From: a virus
Taxonomy: Duplodnaviria; Caudoviricetes
Length of the DNA stretch: 64,000 nucleotides
Direction: 5' to 3' (one strand)
IMG/VR virus record: IMGVR_UViG_3300006099_000007
Span: 15,529 to 79,528 of that record
Of the stretch, positions 2,921 to 19,458 are shown piece by piece. Made by a program: the position numbers and the translations under genes. Numbering within the stretch: position 1 is the stretch's first letter; every line of letters starts with the position of its first letter. Below the pieces are notes generated by a model, which was not told the DNA's origin, searched no databases, and was given only the letters and a program-made list of their open reading frames with translations.

Positions 2921-2949
2921 TTGCGGAAAGTTCCGTTTTTCTGTATATT
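2921..2949 (+). promoter_or_regulatory. Sigma70-like promoter for the small peptide gene
   Basis: TTGCGG-17 bp-TATATT. Confidence 0.55.
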
Positions 2950-2994
2950 TGCCGTGCCGGGTTGGTCCCGGAACTAAGAAAGGAGGTGTAATAT

Positions 2995-3057
2995 GTGATA
3001 ATAGACTGGCATTCAATACAACGGCTGATTGAGCTTTTGATAGTTCTGTTCAGCTGA
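2995..3057 (+). CDS. 20-aa hydrophobic peptide MIIDWHSIQRLIELLIVLFS, candidate type I toxin
   Basis: AGGAGG at 2981-2986, GTG start 8 nt later, TGA at 3055, upstream promoter and downstream hairpin. Confidence 0.65.
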   Translation: MIIDWHSIQRLIELLIVLFS

Positions 3058-3134
3058 CAAAAAAGGCCCCGGCTGTTCCAGCAGCCGGGGCCGATTGTTT
3101 AGAAGGTGAACATGTGATGTTCGGCAATCAATAC
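3058..3134 (-). ncRNA. Candidate antisense antitoxin sRNA of about 77 nt
   Basis: Minus-strand TTGACA(3168-3163)-16 bp-CATAGT; two segments complementary to the peptide mRNA; ends in the hairpin plus U-tract. Confidence 0.6.
3059..3092. terminator. Intrinsic terminator shared by the peptide gene and sRNA
   Basis: 11-bp stem GGCCCCGGCTG/CAGCCGGGGCC with an A-tract on the left. Confidence 0.8.
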
Positions 3135-3220
3135 GTCCTTACTATGCTCTTTTTGCCGGATTTGTCAAGCGTGCGGTTGTCATGCTGGCGCGGCTAATAA
3201 TGCCGCTTTTTTTATCATCG

Positions 3221-14506: not shown

Positions 14507-14582
14507 GTCGCGTTCGTCTAGCGGTCCAGGACTCCCGCCTTTCACGCGGGCAACACGGGTTCGAGTCCCGTACGCGATGCCA
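14507..14582 (+). tRNA. tRNA-Glu (UUC)
   Basis: 76-nt cloverleaf, anticodon arm CCCGC-CTTTCAC-GCGGG, TTCGAGT T-loop, encoded CCA; first pair is G1-U72. Confidence 0.95.
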
Positions 14583-15963: not shown

Positions 15964-17701
15964 CAAGTTGAAGATACATGAGAAGCCGGGCGTGGTGGAG
16001 TGGGCGGAAAGATGCCTGGTCCTGCCGCGGGAGACTTCACCGAACGCGCCGGGGCGGTTTTCCACGGCGCGCATGCCGTATATGCGGGAACCGCTGGAAA
16101 GCATCAGGGAAGAGGGGTTGCAGCATATTTACTGGTGTTTCGGCACGCAGTCCGGCAAGACGGTTTCGCTGTTGATTGCGGCGGCGTATTTTATTGACAA
16201 TGACCCCGCGCCCATGTTGTGGGCGTTGCCTACGGAAATTCTTGCCAGGTCGTTTTCACGGGCGCGGCTCCAGCCGCTTATATCCAAGAATGATGTGCTG
16301 GCGCGGCATAAGCGGCGTGACCCTGACGCCTTCACGGCGGCGGAAATGCGCCTGGATTCCATGGAACTTTACATGGTTGGGGTGTCGGAGCCGGGCAATT
16401 TGTCCAGCAGGCCCATTATGCGCTGCGTGATGGACGAGGAAGCGAAGTATAAGCATGAGAATAAGGAAGAAGCGCACCCGGTGGACCTGATTGAAGAGCG
16501 CGCGAAGGGCTTTCACCGGTATCAGATTCTGCATGCGTCCACGCCTTCTTCCGAAGATTCTTATTTCTGGCAGAATTTTATTACCACGGACATGCGGAAG
16601 TTTTATGTGCCGTGTCCGCGCTGCGGGGAAATGATGCCCCTGGAGTTTAGCCGGAATACGGTGCAATGGGAAAGGCGGGAGGATCTGGAAGGGGATGCGC
16701 TGGCGGATTGGGTGCAGGATCATACGTTTTACGTGTGCCCGCATTGCGAGGGCCGGGTGGAGGATTGGGAGAAGATTGGGATGATGGAAAAGGGGGAGTG
16801 GCGGCCGACGAATCCGAACGCCTCCCGCGCGCGGCGGGGGTATCACCTGAATTCCCTTTATTCCCCGTTTGTGACATGGGGGCAGACGGCGCGGAAGTTC
16901 ATCGTGGCTCAAAATGACCTGTTCCGGCAGGTGGCCCTGCACAATTTCCGGAACGGCTGGGAGGCGTTGCCGTTTACGCAGTATGAAATCAAGGTGGGGG
17001 ATGACAGTGTGCGGGGGCTGCGCGGTGTGTGCCGGCGCGGAGAGTTGCCGCGGCATTATTATTATATGGTAGTGGCCTATGACCCCGGCCAGAATCAAAC
17101 TCACTGGGTGGCGCAGGCGATAGGGCGCGGCGGGGAAACATGGGTGGTTGATTGGGGGACCCTGCTGGGCATCAGCACGACGGACGCGACGCCGGGCATA
17201 GGGGCCCATTTTGAAAGCCTGGAGTGGGGCGGGGTGCGTCCTGATTTTGGGCTGATTGATTCCGGGGATTGGGCGCAGAAGGTTTATGACGAGTGTTATA
17301 AGTATTACGGCAAGCTATGGCCTACGAAGGGGAGCGGCGCGAATTTCGGAAGCTGGAATGTTAGCGAAGTGAAGTCGCATCCGGGGCTGGAGCTTTATTT
17401 GTACGTGGACCGCACCGCCAAAATGGAGCTTTACGCGGGGCGCATCCAGAAAGGGGCGGCTCCGGCCCTGCATTTGCCGGAAGATGCGGATCAGGATTTG
17501 CTGGCCGGATTGTCCGGGCAGCAGCTTGAGAAGCCAAGGGGCGGCGGCCTGGCGCAATGGCGGAAGCTGCCGAATGACCATTATGGAGACTGCGTAAAAA
17601 TCGGGCAGGTGTCCTGGTGGGTGCGGCGCGGGGATTTTTACGCGGAAGAAATGAACGCGATTGAAGAAAGGAAGCAGAATGAGGGAGTACCGGAAGAATG
17701 A
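15956..17701 (+). CDS. Terminase large subunit, lambda GpA family
   Basis: GRFSTARMPYMREPL, GTQSGKT, VMDEE, STP, FYVPCPRCG and C-terminal NDHYGDC. Confidence 0.95.
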   Translation: MFSKLKIHEKPGVVEWAERCLVLPRETSPNAPGRFSTARMPYMREPLESIREEGLQHIYWCFGTQSGKTVSLLIAAAYFIDNDPAPMLWALPTEILARSFSRARLQPLISKNDVLARHKRRDPDAFTAAEMRLDSMELYMVGVSEPGNLSSRPIMRCVMDEEAKYKHENKEEAHPVDLIEERAKGFHRYQILHASTPSSEDSYFWQNFITTDMRKFYVPCPRCGEMMPLEFSRNTVQWERREDLEGDALADWVQDHTFYVCPHCEGRVEDWEKIGMMEKGEWRPTNPNASRARRGYHLNSLYSPFVTWGQTARKFIVAQNDLFRQVALHNFRNGWEALPFTQYEIKVGDDSVRGLRGVCRRGELPRHYYYMVVAYDPGQNQTHWVAQAIGRGGETWVVDWGTLLGISTTDATPGIGAHFESLEWGGVRPDFGLIDSGDWAQKVYDECYKYYGKLWPTKGSGANFGSWNVSEVKSHPGLELYLYVDRTAKMELYAGRIQKGAAPALHLPEDADQDLLAGLSGQQLEKPRGGGLAQWRKLPNDHYGDCVKIGQVSWWVRRGDFYAEEMNAIEERKQNEGVPEE

Positions 17702-18074
17702 CGTGCTGGAGAGGCTGAAGGCGGCTTTGGAAGCAGGGCTGTATAAGGCGCGGTTGCTGAAAAAGCATGGGCTGCCTCCGGATACGCCGGCGCGGCTGTT
17801 GGAGGGGGAATGGCTGCACCCTGAATGCGCGGGGCTGAATGCGGCGTGGAAAGATTTTTGGGACAAGCGGCAGGCGTTTTTCTGGACGTTGAAACAGTAC
17901 CACGCGGAGCGGGGCCGGGAGGTTCCGGAATTGGTGAAGGTTCTTTTTGATGCGTTCGTAGAACGGTTGTCGCTGGCGTTTGATGAAGAGGCGTTGAGGT
18001 CGGCTTTTCAGGATGTGCTGGAACAGGTGGAACAGTCTGTTACGGATGATGTGCAAATGGAGTTTTATTTTTAG
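17679..18074 (+). CDS. Hypothetical protein downstream of terminase
   Basis: Overlaps the terminase stop. Confidence 0.5.
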   Translation: MREYRKNDVLERLKAALEAGLYKARLLKKHGLPPDTPARLLEGEWLHPECAGLNAAWKDFWDKRQAFFWTLKQYHAERGREVPELVKVLFDAFVERLSLAFDEEALRSAFQDVLEQVEQSVTDDVQMEFYF

Positions 18075-18167
18075 TGCGGGTTTTCCCGGTGGTGTGGTAT
18101 AGTCCGGGCCGTTGACGGCAGGGAAGGGCCCTGCCGTAACGCTTAACCCCTAAATAGAAAGGTTTAT

Positions 18168-18233
18168 ATGCTCTATGTAAACCCCCTGTTGCTTGAGTGG
18201 CTTGGGCAGGTGCTTGTGCTCCTGATTGGCTAG
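18168..18233 (+). CDS. 21-aa hydrophobic peptide MLYVNPLLLEWLGQVLVLLIG, candidate type I toxin
   Basis: AGAAAGG SD at 18156-18162, extended -10 TGGTATAGT ending at 18103, 5' UTR hairpin, hairpin after the stop. Confidence 0.65.
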   Translation: MLYVNPLLLEWLGQVLVLLIG

Positions 18234-18307
18234 TCAAGCCCTCCCTCCCGAGTGCAAGCGGGAGGGAGGAAAAAGGGGTTGACGTTTTTCTTATATATGC
18301 TATAGGA

Positions 18308-18385
18308 GAATCAGCAGGGATTATAGAGCATCCCGCCTTTCTAAATAAACCCCGCGCCGTTGCACCGGTGCGGGGCTTTTTTTGT
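18308..18385 (+). ncRNA. Candidate antitoxin sRNA, tandem on the same strand
   Basis: TTGACG(18279)-16 bp-TATAGG promoter; three segments complementary to the peptide SD, start and codons 6-8; ends in a hairpin plus T7. Confidence 0.65.
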
Positions 18386-18464
18386 GGAAGATTTTTCAGG
18401 AGATCCCGAACCAGGCGGACCGGTTTGATGCGGATGGTGTTCAACTGGAGAGCGGGGAAGAGTG

Positions 18465-19364
18465 TTATTCTCCGTTTCTCTTAAGCTCTTTTAAGAAAGC
18501 TTCGTGTTCATCCGAAATGACTTCAAACGTGTTGTTGGTTGGTTTGACCCTACTGACATTTATTTGATCATCATAAGAAATTTCATCGCTATAGGTGATT
18601 TTTATACCATTTTTTTCTCCTAAAGTAAGAGCGTTGATGCGTGATTGCGTCAATCCTTCAGGATAAGGGCAGTGCATCCCCAACATAACGCTTTTTATAT
18701 ACAGATTGAATCCTCTGATGAATACTAAACTATCTTCTACTTCTGCGGGAAATGAAGTTGGGATAATAATGCGTTGTTCTTTTTCATATGTCCAAGATTC
18801 ATTTTTTGTAATAAAAATAGGGTTTATTTTGAATTCTATTTGATCTCCAGATGTAGTATATCCTGATAAAATTCCATCGAATTTGGCACGTTCGTTCTGA
18901 TAGTCAATATCCCATAGTATAACATAATTAGTTATTTCTTTTGTTTTTGGATTTTGTTTCGAAAAAAAATAGTCTCCTTCATGTTCTACCATCAATCGCC
19001 TATATATATAGGGATGCTCTTCTTTAGGATCTGATATTCTATTATAACTTTTTTGTTCCGGGAGCGAGGGAAATCTGAAATGCACACAGCATCCTTTATG
19101 GTTATCAGCATAGTGTGCCCACATGGTGGGTGATTTATAGGTTTTGGTAAAGCTCAGGAAGCCGTATTCCTTACGCAAATGATTGCTATCGAAAGAGGTA
19201 TATCCGTCTGGCAATTTTGTTGGCGGGGCTGACATGAATTCGAATGGATCATTGCATTCTTCCGGGAAAAGGACTTTGAGGCGCCCCTTTTCCAATGTTT
19301 TAATCATGTTCTCATAGGACATGAAGATGTAGGCATCAATGTATTTTATATTCTCTCCTGTCAT
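18465..19364 (-). CDS. DUF2971-family protein (AT-rich moron)
   Basis: NDPFE, SPTMWAHYADNHKGCC and TKxxxWxYEKExR motifs. Confidence 0.8.
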   Translation of the reverse strand: MTGENIKYIDAYIFMSYENMIKTLEKGRLKVLFPEECNDPFEFMSAPPTKLPDGYTSFDSNHLRKEYGFLSFTKTYKSPTMWAHYADNHKGCCVHFRFPSLPEQKSYNRISDPKEEHPYIYRRLMVEHEGDYFFSKQNPKTKEITNYVILWDIDYQNERAKFDGILSGYTTSGDQIEFKINPIFITKNESWTYEKEQRIIIPTSFPAEVEDSLVFIRGFNLYIKSVMLGMHCPYPEGLTQSRINALTLGEKNGIKITYSDEISYDDQINVSRVKPTNNTFEVISDEHEAFLKELKRNGE

Positions 19365-19434
19365 GGGAATATATGGAAAGATATGTGAGAAAGGAAGTCA
19401 ATGACATTCGGGCGTTGTGGCGGATGATAGCGGG

Positions 19435-19458
19435 TTTTGAAAAAGCTCCTGAAGGGTA
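19435..19458 (+). promoter_or_regulatory. Unit-1 late-gene motif TTTTGAAAAAGCTCCTGAAGGGTA, copy 1
   Basis: Copies at 21281, 25115 (1 mismatch) and 33062, each just upstream of a structural gene. Confidence 0.75.

What the first reader, a model, noticed from the sequence alone, without database searches (positions are those of the whole stretch)
18075..18385. Unannotated type I toxin-antitoxin-like locus 2 with a downstream same-strand antitoxin
Seen: extended -10 promoter, leader hairpin ACGGCAGGG/CCCTGCCGT, SD, 21-aa hydrophobic ORF, hairpin, then a second promoter driving an RNA of about 78 nt. That RNA has CCTTTCTA (18336-18343) complementary to the SD region TAGAAAGG (18155-18162), ATAGAGCAT (18323-18331) complementary to ATGCTCTAT (18168-18176), and CAGCAGGG (18312-18319) pairing with CCCTGTTG (18184-18191, one G-U), all in the correct antiparallel order. 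Inference: an inverted partial copy of the translation-initiation region acts in trans. This tandem layout differs from locus 1 and from overlapping cis-antisense systems, and I do not recognise the peptide family.
Basis: partly seen in the sequence, partly recalled or inferred. Interest (0 to 1): 0.75.

Follow-up and report, generated by a model that had tools for sequence, protein, structure and literature searches.

The report
Self-locked toxin-like RNA module in prophage
An optional 300-base cassette in a gut Akkermansia-type phage makes a highly folded RNA that carries a 21-codon oily-peptide gene whose ribosome-binding site and start codon are clamped by a matching piece of the same RNA's tail; it looks like an RNA-controlled toxin-antitoxin module with an unusual same-strand layout, but toxicity is untested.

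Summary
The three colinear complementary blocks are far beyond chance.

The cassette (18095-18382) is a self-contained accessory insert in a variable site between the terminase and portal genes. The phage is probably an Akkermansia phage. No Rfam, Pfam or PHROG family matches the cassette.

Seven distinct alleles were found, in 11 further viral and metagenome contigs. Across them:
- the leader, SD, start region and the complementary 3' segment are almost invariant;
- the GC hairpin and the terminator carry compensatory double changes;
- both TGnTATAG promoters keep their motifs while the n base and the P2 spacer drift;
- every change in the 21-codon frame is silent or I/L/V, and the overlapping long ORFs are spurious.

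Short contigs from gut metatranscriptomes cover 18120-18356 in one piece, across P2. The "antitoxin" sequence is therefore at least also the 3' tail of the peptide mRNA. In the predicted fold it locks the SD and AUG in cis (pair probability about 0.9).

Best reading (confidence 0.4): a type-I-toxin-like mRNA that locks itself, whose lock is also made as a free sRNA of about 70 nt from internal promoter P2. Toxicity, translation and the separate sRNA are not shown. The seeds are conserved but show no covariation.

The parts
18095..18103 (+). P1, extended -10 promoter TGnTATAGT. The predicted start is near 18110.
   Evidence: Sequence. TG and TATAGT are invariant in the 7 intact alleles, with n = G or A. 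The TG is lost in the ORF-deleted remnant L003. RNA contigs begin at 18120-18125.
18110..18141 (+). 5'-terminal leader stem-loop (core 18115-18137).
   Evidence: 9/9 inverted repeat. It appears in the MFE and in the consensus fold. There is one G-U change and one break among the 7 alleles.
18156..18162 (+). Shine-Dalgarno sequence AGAAAGG, 5 nt upstream of the ATG.
   Evidence: Sequence. The same SD precedes the 137-aa ORF and the locus-1 ORF. It is invariant in all alleles.
18168..18233 (+). 21-codon ORF MLYVNPLLLEWLGQVLVLLIG plus its stop: the candidate membrane peptide or toxin.
   Evidence: All of at least 6 substitution events are silent, stop-to-stop (TAG>TAA) or I/L/V (P about 0.007-0.013). 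The same changes are radical in the two overlapping long frames. There is no Pfam or PHROG hit.
18161..18183 (+). Local hairpin GGTTTATAT / ATGTAAACC that pairs part of the SD and the AUG when the 3' segment is absent. It is a candidate metastable co-transcriptional lock.
   Evidence: (I10). In the truncated RNA the AUG has an unpaired probability of 0.01-0.33.
18191..18239 (+). Hairpin inside and just after the ORF.
   Evidence: One U-A to U-G change is compatible with pairing.
18240..18269 (+). GC-rich hairpin of 11-12 bp directly after the stop, followed by A5 rather than a U-tract. It is a candidate 3' protective structure for a processed mRNA.
   Evidence: Two fully compensatory pair changes in L034 (C-G>A-U; C-G/U-G>G-C).
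18279..18306 (+). P2: TTGACG, a 16-nt spacer, then TGnTATAGG. The predicted start is near 18313. As RNA the same stretch can form a hairpin.
   Evidence: The hexamers, TG and spacer length are invariant. The spacer has 6 changes in L034, and n takes all four bases. Changes compatible with pairing are also seen (helix 11). No direct evidence for a 5' end.
18312..18343 (+). Segment complementary to the initiation region, with three blocks against CCCTGTTG, ATGCTCTAT and TAGAAAGG. It is both the 3' tail of the long RNA and the body of the putative sRNA.
   Evidence: It is invariant except A18323G, which changes A-U to G-U. In the sRNA folded alone, the anti-AUG lies in a loop and the anti-SD lies in a single-stranded linker.
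18343..18382 (.). Intrinsic terminator. It is bidirectional in form (A-rich before, T7 after) and is shared with the convergent DUF2971 gene.
   Evidence: One compensatory C-G>U-A change and one G-U>A-U change.
18120..18356 (+). Extent of the RNA-library contigs. The strand is inferred from the promoter and terminator, not from the data.
   Evidence: X11 18120-18356, X13 18125-18355, X12 18124-18354. The DNA-like run X5 continues through both ends.
18005..18062 (+). Left copy of a 58-nt direct repeat, which is the 3' end of the 137-aa ORF. The right copy lies at 18393-18450 (74% identity). The two copies bracket the cassette.
   Evidence: D1. L005 lacks both the cassette and the right copy.

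Best explanation
The cassette is an autonomous accessory gene (a moron) of a temperate phage that is probably an Akkermansia phage.

Proposed mechanism:
1. P1 drives an RNA of about 270 nt (about 18110-18382). It starts with a protective stem-loop and carries a 21-codon gene for a hydrophobic peptide.
2. The RNA ends in a segment (18312-18343) that folds back onto the SD, the AUG and codons 6-8 of that gene. The full-length RNA is therefore stable but untranslatable.
3. While the RNA is being made, a local hairpin (18161-18183) covers the start until the 3' lock has been transcribed.
4. An internal promoter, P2, probably also makes the lock as a free RNA of about 70 nt (stem-loop, single-stranded anti-SD, terminator). 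This sRNA could silence in trans any mRNA that has lost its own tail, for example one trimmed back to the GC hairpin at 18240-18269.
5. Functionally this is a type I toxin-antitoxin-like circuit. The antitoxin is a same-strand copy of the toxin mRNA's own fold-back element.

Shown: the sequence features, their conservation pattern, the compensatory changes in two hairpins, and RNA covering 18120-18356.

Inferred: translation of the ORF, its toxicity, 3' processing, P2 activity and trans action.
For: Motifs and statistics.

Predicted lock:
- Pair probabilities are 0.77-0.91 for the SD helix and 0.71-0.91 for the AUG helix in the full-length RNA.
- Adding the free sRNA to a truncated mRNA gains -15.2 kcal/mol.

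Conservation:
- In L034 the flanks and the 3' half differ by about 15%. In contrast, 18107-18202 has one change and 18301-18348 has none beyond A18323G.
- Compensatory double changes occur in the GC hairpin and the terminator. 0 of 500 shuffles reach the observed covariation score.

Promoter signature at P1 and P2. Two of the five TGNTATAG sites in the 64-kb window lie in this cassette.

Coding signature:
- At least 6 events in the ORF are all silent or I/L/V, including TAG>TAA.
- The overlapping 134-aa and 95-aa ORFs are rejected (27 nonsynonymous against 10 synonymous changes, a frameshift and a nonsense codon).

Expression:
- Contigs of 231-237 nt in three RNA-library runs from two studies stop at the same places, where a DNA-like run goes on. 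They bridge P2. This is a hint, not proof.

Co-occurrence:
- All 8 metagenome hits found through the initiation region alone also carry the lock and the terminator.
- The only separated form is the lock without the ORF (L003). That form has lost both TG motifs and the anti-AUG CAT, and it is more diverged than the other alleles.

Design parallels: a full-length toxin mRNA that is untranslatable by folding, 3' processing, and metastable hairpins that sequester the SD are described for aapA1/aapA3 (PMC5416894, PMC6733600).
Against: - There is no test of toxicity or translation.
- The peptide has no family match, no charged tail, and only about 15 hydrophobic residues after Pro6.
- No 5' end at P2 has been observed, and the contigs give no strand.
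- The -10 of P2 ends in G (TATAGG).
- The P2 region can also be read as an RNA hairpin whose changes are compatible with pairing (helix 11).
- The lock helices are invariant, so they show no covariation.
- All alleles are at least 85-90% identical and could be one recently spread block.
- Part of the 5' conservation in the metagenome hits is forced by the 23-mer used to find them.
- Duplex energy alone does not single out this target. The next-best sites in the window are within about 1 kcal/mol.
Confidence: 0.4

Rival explanations
1. Cis-only lock. One RNA runs from P1 to the terminator. The 3' segment acts only as an intramolecular fold-back inhibitor. P2 is not a promoter, and its conservation reflects RNA structure. 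Any antitoxin is absent, or the peptide is not a toxin but a tightly gated small protein.
For: One contig spans the ORF and the 3' segment across P2. There is no U-tract after the GC hairpin. The long-range helices dominate the ensemble. Helix 11 over P2 shows four one-sided changes compatible with pairing. The -10 of P2 lacks the final T.
Against: In L034 the inner pairs of the P2-region hairpin are broken, while TTGACG, the 16-nt spacing, TG and TATAGG stay exact. The 'n' base takes all four letters. That pattern fits a promoter better than a helix. The free 70-nt RNA would have a textbook sRNA shape.
Confidence: 0.2
2. Non-coding regulatory RNA or RNAs. The cassette encodes a prophage sRNA, or a structured RNA of about 270 nt, that acts on host or other phage transcripts. 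The 5' half is a sponge or decoy or simply structure, and the 21-codon ORF is not translated.
For: Extreme predicted structure (z = -7.7). Codons 1-11 show no synonymous variation even in L034, which indicates RNA-level constraint. The anti-SD CCUUUCU could pair with other AGAAAGG SDs, such as those of the 137-aa ORF and locus 1. Prophage morons often encode sRNAs (general knowledge).
Against: The substitution pattern in codons 12-22 is silent or conservative in this frame only, and the stop is preserved as TAG>TAA. The SD is strong and correctly spaced in a phage where many genes have none. Hydrophobicity is in the top 1.3% of random short ORFs. When the ORF is deleted, the remaining sRNA part looks as if it is decaying. 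No Rfam family matches.
Confidence: 0.2
3. Two separate tandem transcripts exist: an mRNA that ends at the hairpin after the ORF, and an independent sRNA that acts only in trans.
For: The P2 promoter signature. The complementarity. The ORF-less variant L003 keeps P2, the sRNA and the terminator.
Against: The hairpin at 18240-18269 is followed by AAAAAGGGG, not by U's. The RNA contigs are continuous over 18270-18312 in three runs.
Confidence: 0.1
4. Leader-peptide attenuator. A Leu-rich leader ORF and alternative hairpins control read-through of the terminator into downstream genes.
For: The layout is promoter, short Leu-rich ORF (8 Leu in 21), hairpins, then terminator. There are weak Rfam hits to Leu and Thr leaders (16.4 and 14-19 bits). 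In L011 and L037 the cassette sits directly upstream of the gpW-like and portal genes.
Against: The Rfam hits are far below gathering scores and rest on the terminator. In the window and in most alleles the next gene is convergent. No antiterminator competes with the terminator stem in the folds. The cassette is absent from most relatives, whose late genes work without it.
Confidence: 0.03

Closest known systems
aapA1/IsoA1 and aapA3/IsoA3 of Helicobacter pylori (PMC5416894, PMC6733600), with hok/sok of plasmid R1 (from my own knowledge)
   Same: A small hydrophobic peptide ORF sits on a stable, highly folded mRNA. The full-length transcript is untranslatable because a distant 3' segment pairs with the 5' initiation region. 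Local hairpins can cover the SD during synthesis. A hairpin could protect a 3'-trimmed form.
   Different: In those systems the antitoxin is transcribed from the opposite strand and overlaps the toxin gene. Here no convincing antisense promoter exists, and the candidate antitoxin is a same-strand copy of the fold-back element itself. The peptides show no sequence similarity. No processing or toxicity is shown here.
Trans-encoded type I systems: tisB/istR-1, dinQ/agrB, shoB/ohsC, zor/orz, ralR/ralA (PMC12390103, PMC4041452)
   Same: A short, imperfect, block-wise complementarity exists between a separately promoted sRNA and the toxin mRNA, without gene overlap.
   Different: Those antitoxins lie on the opposite strand, so the DNA carries direct repeats. 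Here the complementarity is an inverted repeat on one strand, so the same sequence is also part of the mRNA.
c4 antisense RNA of phage P1/P7 immI (Citron & Schuster 1990, cited in PMC8201110; the same-strand detail is from my own knowledge)
   Same: A phage-encoded RNA of about 70-80 nt is transcribed from the same strand as its target. It pairs through two short blocks with the ribosome-binding region of a small ORF (icd) whose product harms the cell.
   Different: c4 lies upstream of its target and is processed from the same transcript. It controls an antirepressor operon in an immunity region. Here the RNA lies downstream and the target stands alone in a moron.
Autoregulatory 3'UTR-derived sRNAs OppZ and CarZ of Vibrio cholerae (PMC7398697)
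   Same: An sRNA identical to the 3' end of an mRNA pairs with a translation-initiation region of its own parental transcript.
   Different: Those sRNAs are released by RNase E and have no promoter of their own. They regulate large metabolic operons and are not described as locking the mRNA in cis.
Scan note e1-4736634 (gut Clostridia mobile element: an 18-codon ORF with a tandem sRNA complementary to its SD/AUG)
   Same: A tandem same-strand layout of a micro-ORF and an sRNA complementary to its initiation region, on a mobile element of gut bacteria.
   Different: Different DNA, phylum and peptide. It is an unchecked AI note and was not tested here.

Membership tests
Type I toxin-antitoxin system (generic definition) | Small (<60 aa) hydrophobic toxin ORF with its own promoter | tested here: met
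   The ORF has 21 codons and a GRAVY of 1.63. P1 is conserved. The coding signature is seen.
Type I toxin-antitoxin system (generic definition) | Expression of the peptide is toxic to the cell | not testable with these tools
   This needs an induction assay.
Type I toxin-antitoxin system (generic definition) | RNA antitoxin with its own promoter, complementary to the toxin mRNA | tested here: inconclusive
   The complementarity is confirmed. P2 has a promoter-like conservation pattern, but no 5' end was observed. The contigs are unstranded and continuous.
Type I toxin-antitoxin system (generic definition) | Antitoxin encoded on the opposite strand, either cis-overlapping or trans (PMC12390103) | tested here: not met
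   The complementary segment is on the same strand. The only - strand -10-like site (TATAAT, 18325-18320) has a poor -35 and no TG motif, and it is TACAAT in 4 of 7 alleles.
Type I toxin-antitoxin system (generic definition) | Toxin mRNA made in a translationally inert fold with the SD sequestered | tested here: met
   Met in silico only. In the full-length RNA the SD bases are 0-9% unpaired and the AUG bases are 1-9% unpaired. The consensus fold keeps the helices.
Hok, Fst/Ldr, Ibs, TisB, ShoB, AapA and other named toxin families | Sequence membership of the peptide | tested here: not met
   No Pfam or PHROG hit at E<=1 or E<=0.01. At 21 aa the query gives little power.
Any Rfam RNA family | Covariance-model score at or above the gathering threshold | tested here: not met
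   Only the tRNA at 14507 passes in the window. The best local hit is F6 at 23 bits against a threshold of 46, and it lies on the terminator.
Amino-acid leader-peptide attenuators (Leu, Thr) | Terminator and antiterminator alternatives upstream of a co-directional regulated operon | tested here: not met
   The scores are 14-19 bits against thresholds of 50-55. The downstream gene is convergent.

The most novel reading that the evidence does not exclude
A new wiring of RNA-controlled toxin-antitoxin modules. The antitoxin is not an antisense transcript. It is a same-strand free copy, made from a promoter inside the toxin transcript, of the toxin mRNA's own 3' fold-back lock. Cis-locking and trans-silencing would then use one sequence. 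This would also be the first type I-like module in Verrucomicrobiota and in an Akkermansia phage, sitting in a moron hot spot where it might serve prophage retention or abortive infection.
Probability: 0.3. Interest if true: 0.75.

Novelty: new variant of a known kind. Interest (0 to 1): 0.55.

Why it matters
[quoted passage not shown] By the literature read here they are known only from Proteobacteria, Firmicutes and Tenericutes (PMC12390103).

A same-strand module in a phage of Akkermansia, a health-relevant gut bacterium, would widen both the phylogenetic range and the accepted architecture. It would also show that search pipelines which look only on the antisense strand miss a class.

The natural alleles give ready-made controls for experiments. 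They include an ORF-deleted remnant and relatives with an empty site.

If the peptide is not toxic, the locus is still a clear case of a small protein gated by a double RNA lock in a prophage moron.

Tried and rejected
Searches that found nothing:
- Rfam at gathering and permissive thresholds: no family.
- blastn of the cassette against 50,697 phage records: no match.
- Two genome-contig scans, one with the 137-aa protein and one with the sRNA pattern: no hits.
- The genome search 'relatives' and 'of' are not available for a virus record or for metagenome loci.
- The search for related loci refuses the 21-aa query. A back-translated peptide pattern in IMG/VR returned only known alleles.
- Pfam and PHROGs gave nothing for the peptide.
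- Literature searches found no Akkermansia sRNA or TSS map.

Readings rejected:
- The - strand 134-aa ORF (18040-18444) and the + strand 95-aa ORF (18197-18484) are not genes.
- A - strand antisense promoter at 18325-18320 is weak and not conserved.
- An attenuator reading is rejected (see rivals).
- A link to the DUF2971 gene is rejected, because the cassette and that gene occur independently.

Tests that did not discriminate:
- Scans of the window with duplexfold rank the ORF's own initiation region first, but only by about 1 kcal/mol. Energy alone is not discriminating.

RNA contigs:
- Stretches without cover beside the cassette in X11 and X12 are no evidence of silence.
- The depths (59 for the cassette contig against 2-4 for flank contigs in X13) are a poor measure of expression, because the runs were chosen by the cassette's own words.
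- The contigs give neither strand nor true ends.

Full report
**What is there.** The window is part of a 79.5-kb IMG/VR virus record. Its large terminase is closest to that of Akkermansia phage Moulinsart, whose host is A. muciniphila. Identity is 51%, against 26-27% for the other listed hits. Moulinsart also has the same gene order: terminase, a small ORF, portal, Clp protease. The runs that hold the cassette are mouse and human gut samples.

- P1, TGGTATAGT, at 18095-18103
- a perfect 9-bp leader hairpin
- SD AGAAAGG, 5 nt before the ATG at 18168
- a 21-codon ORF
- a perfect 11-bp GC hairpin
- P2, TTGACG-N16-TGCTATAGG
- three colinear blocks at 18312-18343 complementary to 18155-18191
- a strong terminator

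The complementarity is not chance. The duplex is -33.5 kcal/mol, against -14.2 ± 3.0 for 1000 shuffles. The whole stretch is extraordinarily structured (z = -7.7).

**Context.** The cassette sits in a variable accessory site.
- Of 18 IMG/VR relatives with 99-100% identical terminases, 9 have only 87-88 nt between the terminase and the gpW-like gene.
- The others carry mosaics of a 137-aa ORF (full or truncated), this cassette, and one or two reverse-strand DUF2971 genes.
- The cassette occurs with and without the DUF2971 gene, and the reverse is also true, so the two are independent.
- It is bracketed by a 58-nt, 74% direct repeat, which is a second diverged copy of the 3' end of the 137-aa ORF. 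This suggests it arrived by recombination between phage alleles.

**Comparative evidence.** Pattern scans gave 11 further contigs and 7 distinct intact alleles. One variant (L003) has lost 18118-18278 by deletion between two GTTGACG repeats. It keeps only the 3' part. Diversity is low, except in L034, which comes from human gut. L034 differs by about 15% in the flanks and in the 3' half of the cassette.

Against that background, 18107-18202 (leader, SD, start and codons 1-11) has one change. The segment 18301-18348 (the -10 of P2 and the complementary segment) has only A18323G, which turns an A-U pair into G-U. There is a caveat. 23 of these bases were fixed by the search pattern, and recombination could mimic constraint.

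Variation falls in four places:
- **GC hairpin.** Two fully compensatory pair changes.
- **Terminator.** One compensatory change and one G-U/A-U change. For the whole structure, 0 of 500 shuffles reach the observed covariation score, and partners slid by 1-3 columns show no double changes.
- **P2 spacer.** Six changes in L034 with the length kept at 16. TTGACG, TG and TATAGG are exact, and the 'n' of TGnTATAGG takes all four bases. At P1, n is G or A.
- **Codons 12-21 and the stop.** CTT/CTG, GTG/GTT, codon 20 as ATT/ATC/CTC/GTT/GTC (I/L/V), and TAG>TAA.

All of the at least 6 events in the ORF are silent or conservative (P about 0.007-0.013 under random substitution). The same changes are radical in the two long overlapping frames. 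Those frames also suffer a frameshift or a nonsense codon in L034, and the - strand frame shows 27 nonsynonymous against 10 synonymous changes. So the 21-codon frame is the only plausible coding frame.

The three seed helices themselves do not covary, because they do not vary.

**Expression.** Contigs from two metatranscriptome runs of one study, and from one run of another study (RNA by guess), cover 18120-18356, 18125-18355 and 18124-18354 as single short contigs. The contig of a DNA-like run passes through both ends. By the tool's own rules this is a weak hint of a discrete RNA. Contigs give no strand, no true ends and no reliable level.

What can be said is that nucleic acid in RNA libraries bridges the ORF, the P2 region and the complementary segment. 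The position fits P1 (predicted start about 18110) and the terminator, with the usual loss at contig ends. It does not fit an mRNA that stops at the U-less hairpin after the ORF.

**Folding.**
- In the RNA from P1 to the terminator, the SD/anti-SD and AUG/anti-AUG helices have pair probabilities of 0.77-0.91 and 0.71-0.91. Both are in the RNAalifold consensus.
- An RNA cut after the GC hairpin still hides the AUG in a local hairpin (18161-18183).
- The free RNA of about 70 nt presents the anti-AUG in a loop and the anti-SD in a single-stranded A/U-rich linker before the terminator. Binding it to the truncated mRNA gains -15 kcal/mol.
- In L034 the local-hairpin fold and the long-range lock are nearly isoenergetic.

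**Mechanism proposed.** The peptide mRNA locks itself. A 5' stem-loop gives stability. A transient local hairpin covers the start during synthesis, and the 3' lock takes over once it has been transcribed. P2 supplies the same lock in trans. The GC hairpin is a plausible stop for 3' trimming, which would unlock the RNA.

This mirrors the logic shown for aapA1/aapA3 and, from my own knowledge, for hok (PMC5416894, PMC6733600). The antisense antitoxin is replaced by a same-strand copy of the fold-back element.

Two observations fit a toxin-antidote dependency:
- The initiation region never occurs without the lock (8 of 8 metagenome hits found through the initiation region alone, plus the viral alleles).
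- The lock occurs once without the ORF. There it has lost both TG motifs and the anti-AUG, and it is more diverged than the other alleles.

These are closely related sequences, and the remnant is a single lineage. Translation, toxicity, processing and P2 activity are all inferred.

**Rivals.** These are a cis-only lock (0.2), a non-coding regulatory RNA (0.2), two strictly separate RNAs as first proposed (0.1), and an attenuator (0.03).

**Comparison with the known.** The module works like a type I TA mRNA of the hok or aapA kind, but it fails the defining 'opposite strand' feature (PMC12390103). It matches no named toxin or Rfam family.

Same-strand antisense control of a harmful small ORF has a phage precedent in P1 c4/icd. 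Here the reference is taken from PMC8201110, and the strand detail is from my own knowledge. A 3'-end sRNA that represses its own mRNA has a precedent in OppZ and CarZ (PMC7398697). An unchecked note of this scan (e1-4736634) reports a tandem sRNA and micro-ORF pair on other DNA. I found no earlier report of this sequence apart from the same stretch read twice.

**Verdict.** The feature is real, expressed and selected. It is a new variant of a known kind. Interest 0.55.

Noticed in passing
window 17700-19436: The whole stretch between the terminase and the gpW-like gene is an accessory hot spot. 9 of 18 near-identical relatives, and Akkermansia phage Moulinsart, have essentially nothing there. 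Other relatives carry mosaics of a 137-aa ORF, the RNA cassette, and one or two DUF2971 genes.
   Followed up: partly
window 18005-18062 and 18393-18450: A 58-nt direct repeat at 74% identity. The right copy is a diverged remnant of the C-terminal coding end of the 137-aa ORF, displaced behind the cassette. It marks a recombination joint between phage alleles.
   Followed up: partly
L003:3380-3645 (= L012, L023): A natural deletion of 18118-18278 between two GTTGACG repeats removes the leader, the ORF and the GC hairpin. It fuses the -10 of P1 to the -35 of P2. The remnant has lost the TG of both promoters and the anti-AUG CAT.
   Followed up: yes
window 17664-17670, 18156-18162, 2977-2983: The same SD, AGAAAGG, precedes the 137-aa ORF and both micro-ORFs (locus 1 and locus 2). 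The terminase, portal and protease starts show no SD. The anti-SD CCUUUCU of the 3' segment could in principle touch all three.
   Followed up: no
window 2921-3168: Locus 1 has a 20-codon ORF (VIIDWHSIQRLIELLIVLFS) with a TGnTATA promoter and a convergent layout. It shares no detectable sequence with locus 2 beyond the SD and a hydrophobic C-terminal half.
   Followed up: partly
window 18465-19364 (- strand); L015:5347-7155: A low-GC DUF2971 / phrog_1762 gene lies convergent to the cassette and shares its bidirectional terminator. One relative carries two diverged tandem copies. Its function is unknown.
   Followed up: partly
L037 and L039 compared with L004 and L011: The cassette allele in L037 and L039 is L004-like in its 5' two-thirds and L011-like from the -10 of P2 onward. 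This points to recombination inside the cassette.
   Followed up: no
window 18144-18151 and 18275-18282: A further conserved inverted repeat, TTAACCCC / GGGGTTGA, links the leader with the -35 region of P2. Together with the local start hairpin it gives an alternative fold of nearly equal energy in L034.
   Followed up: partly
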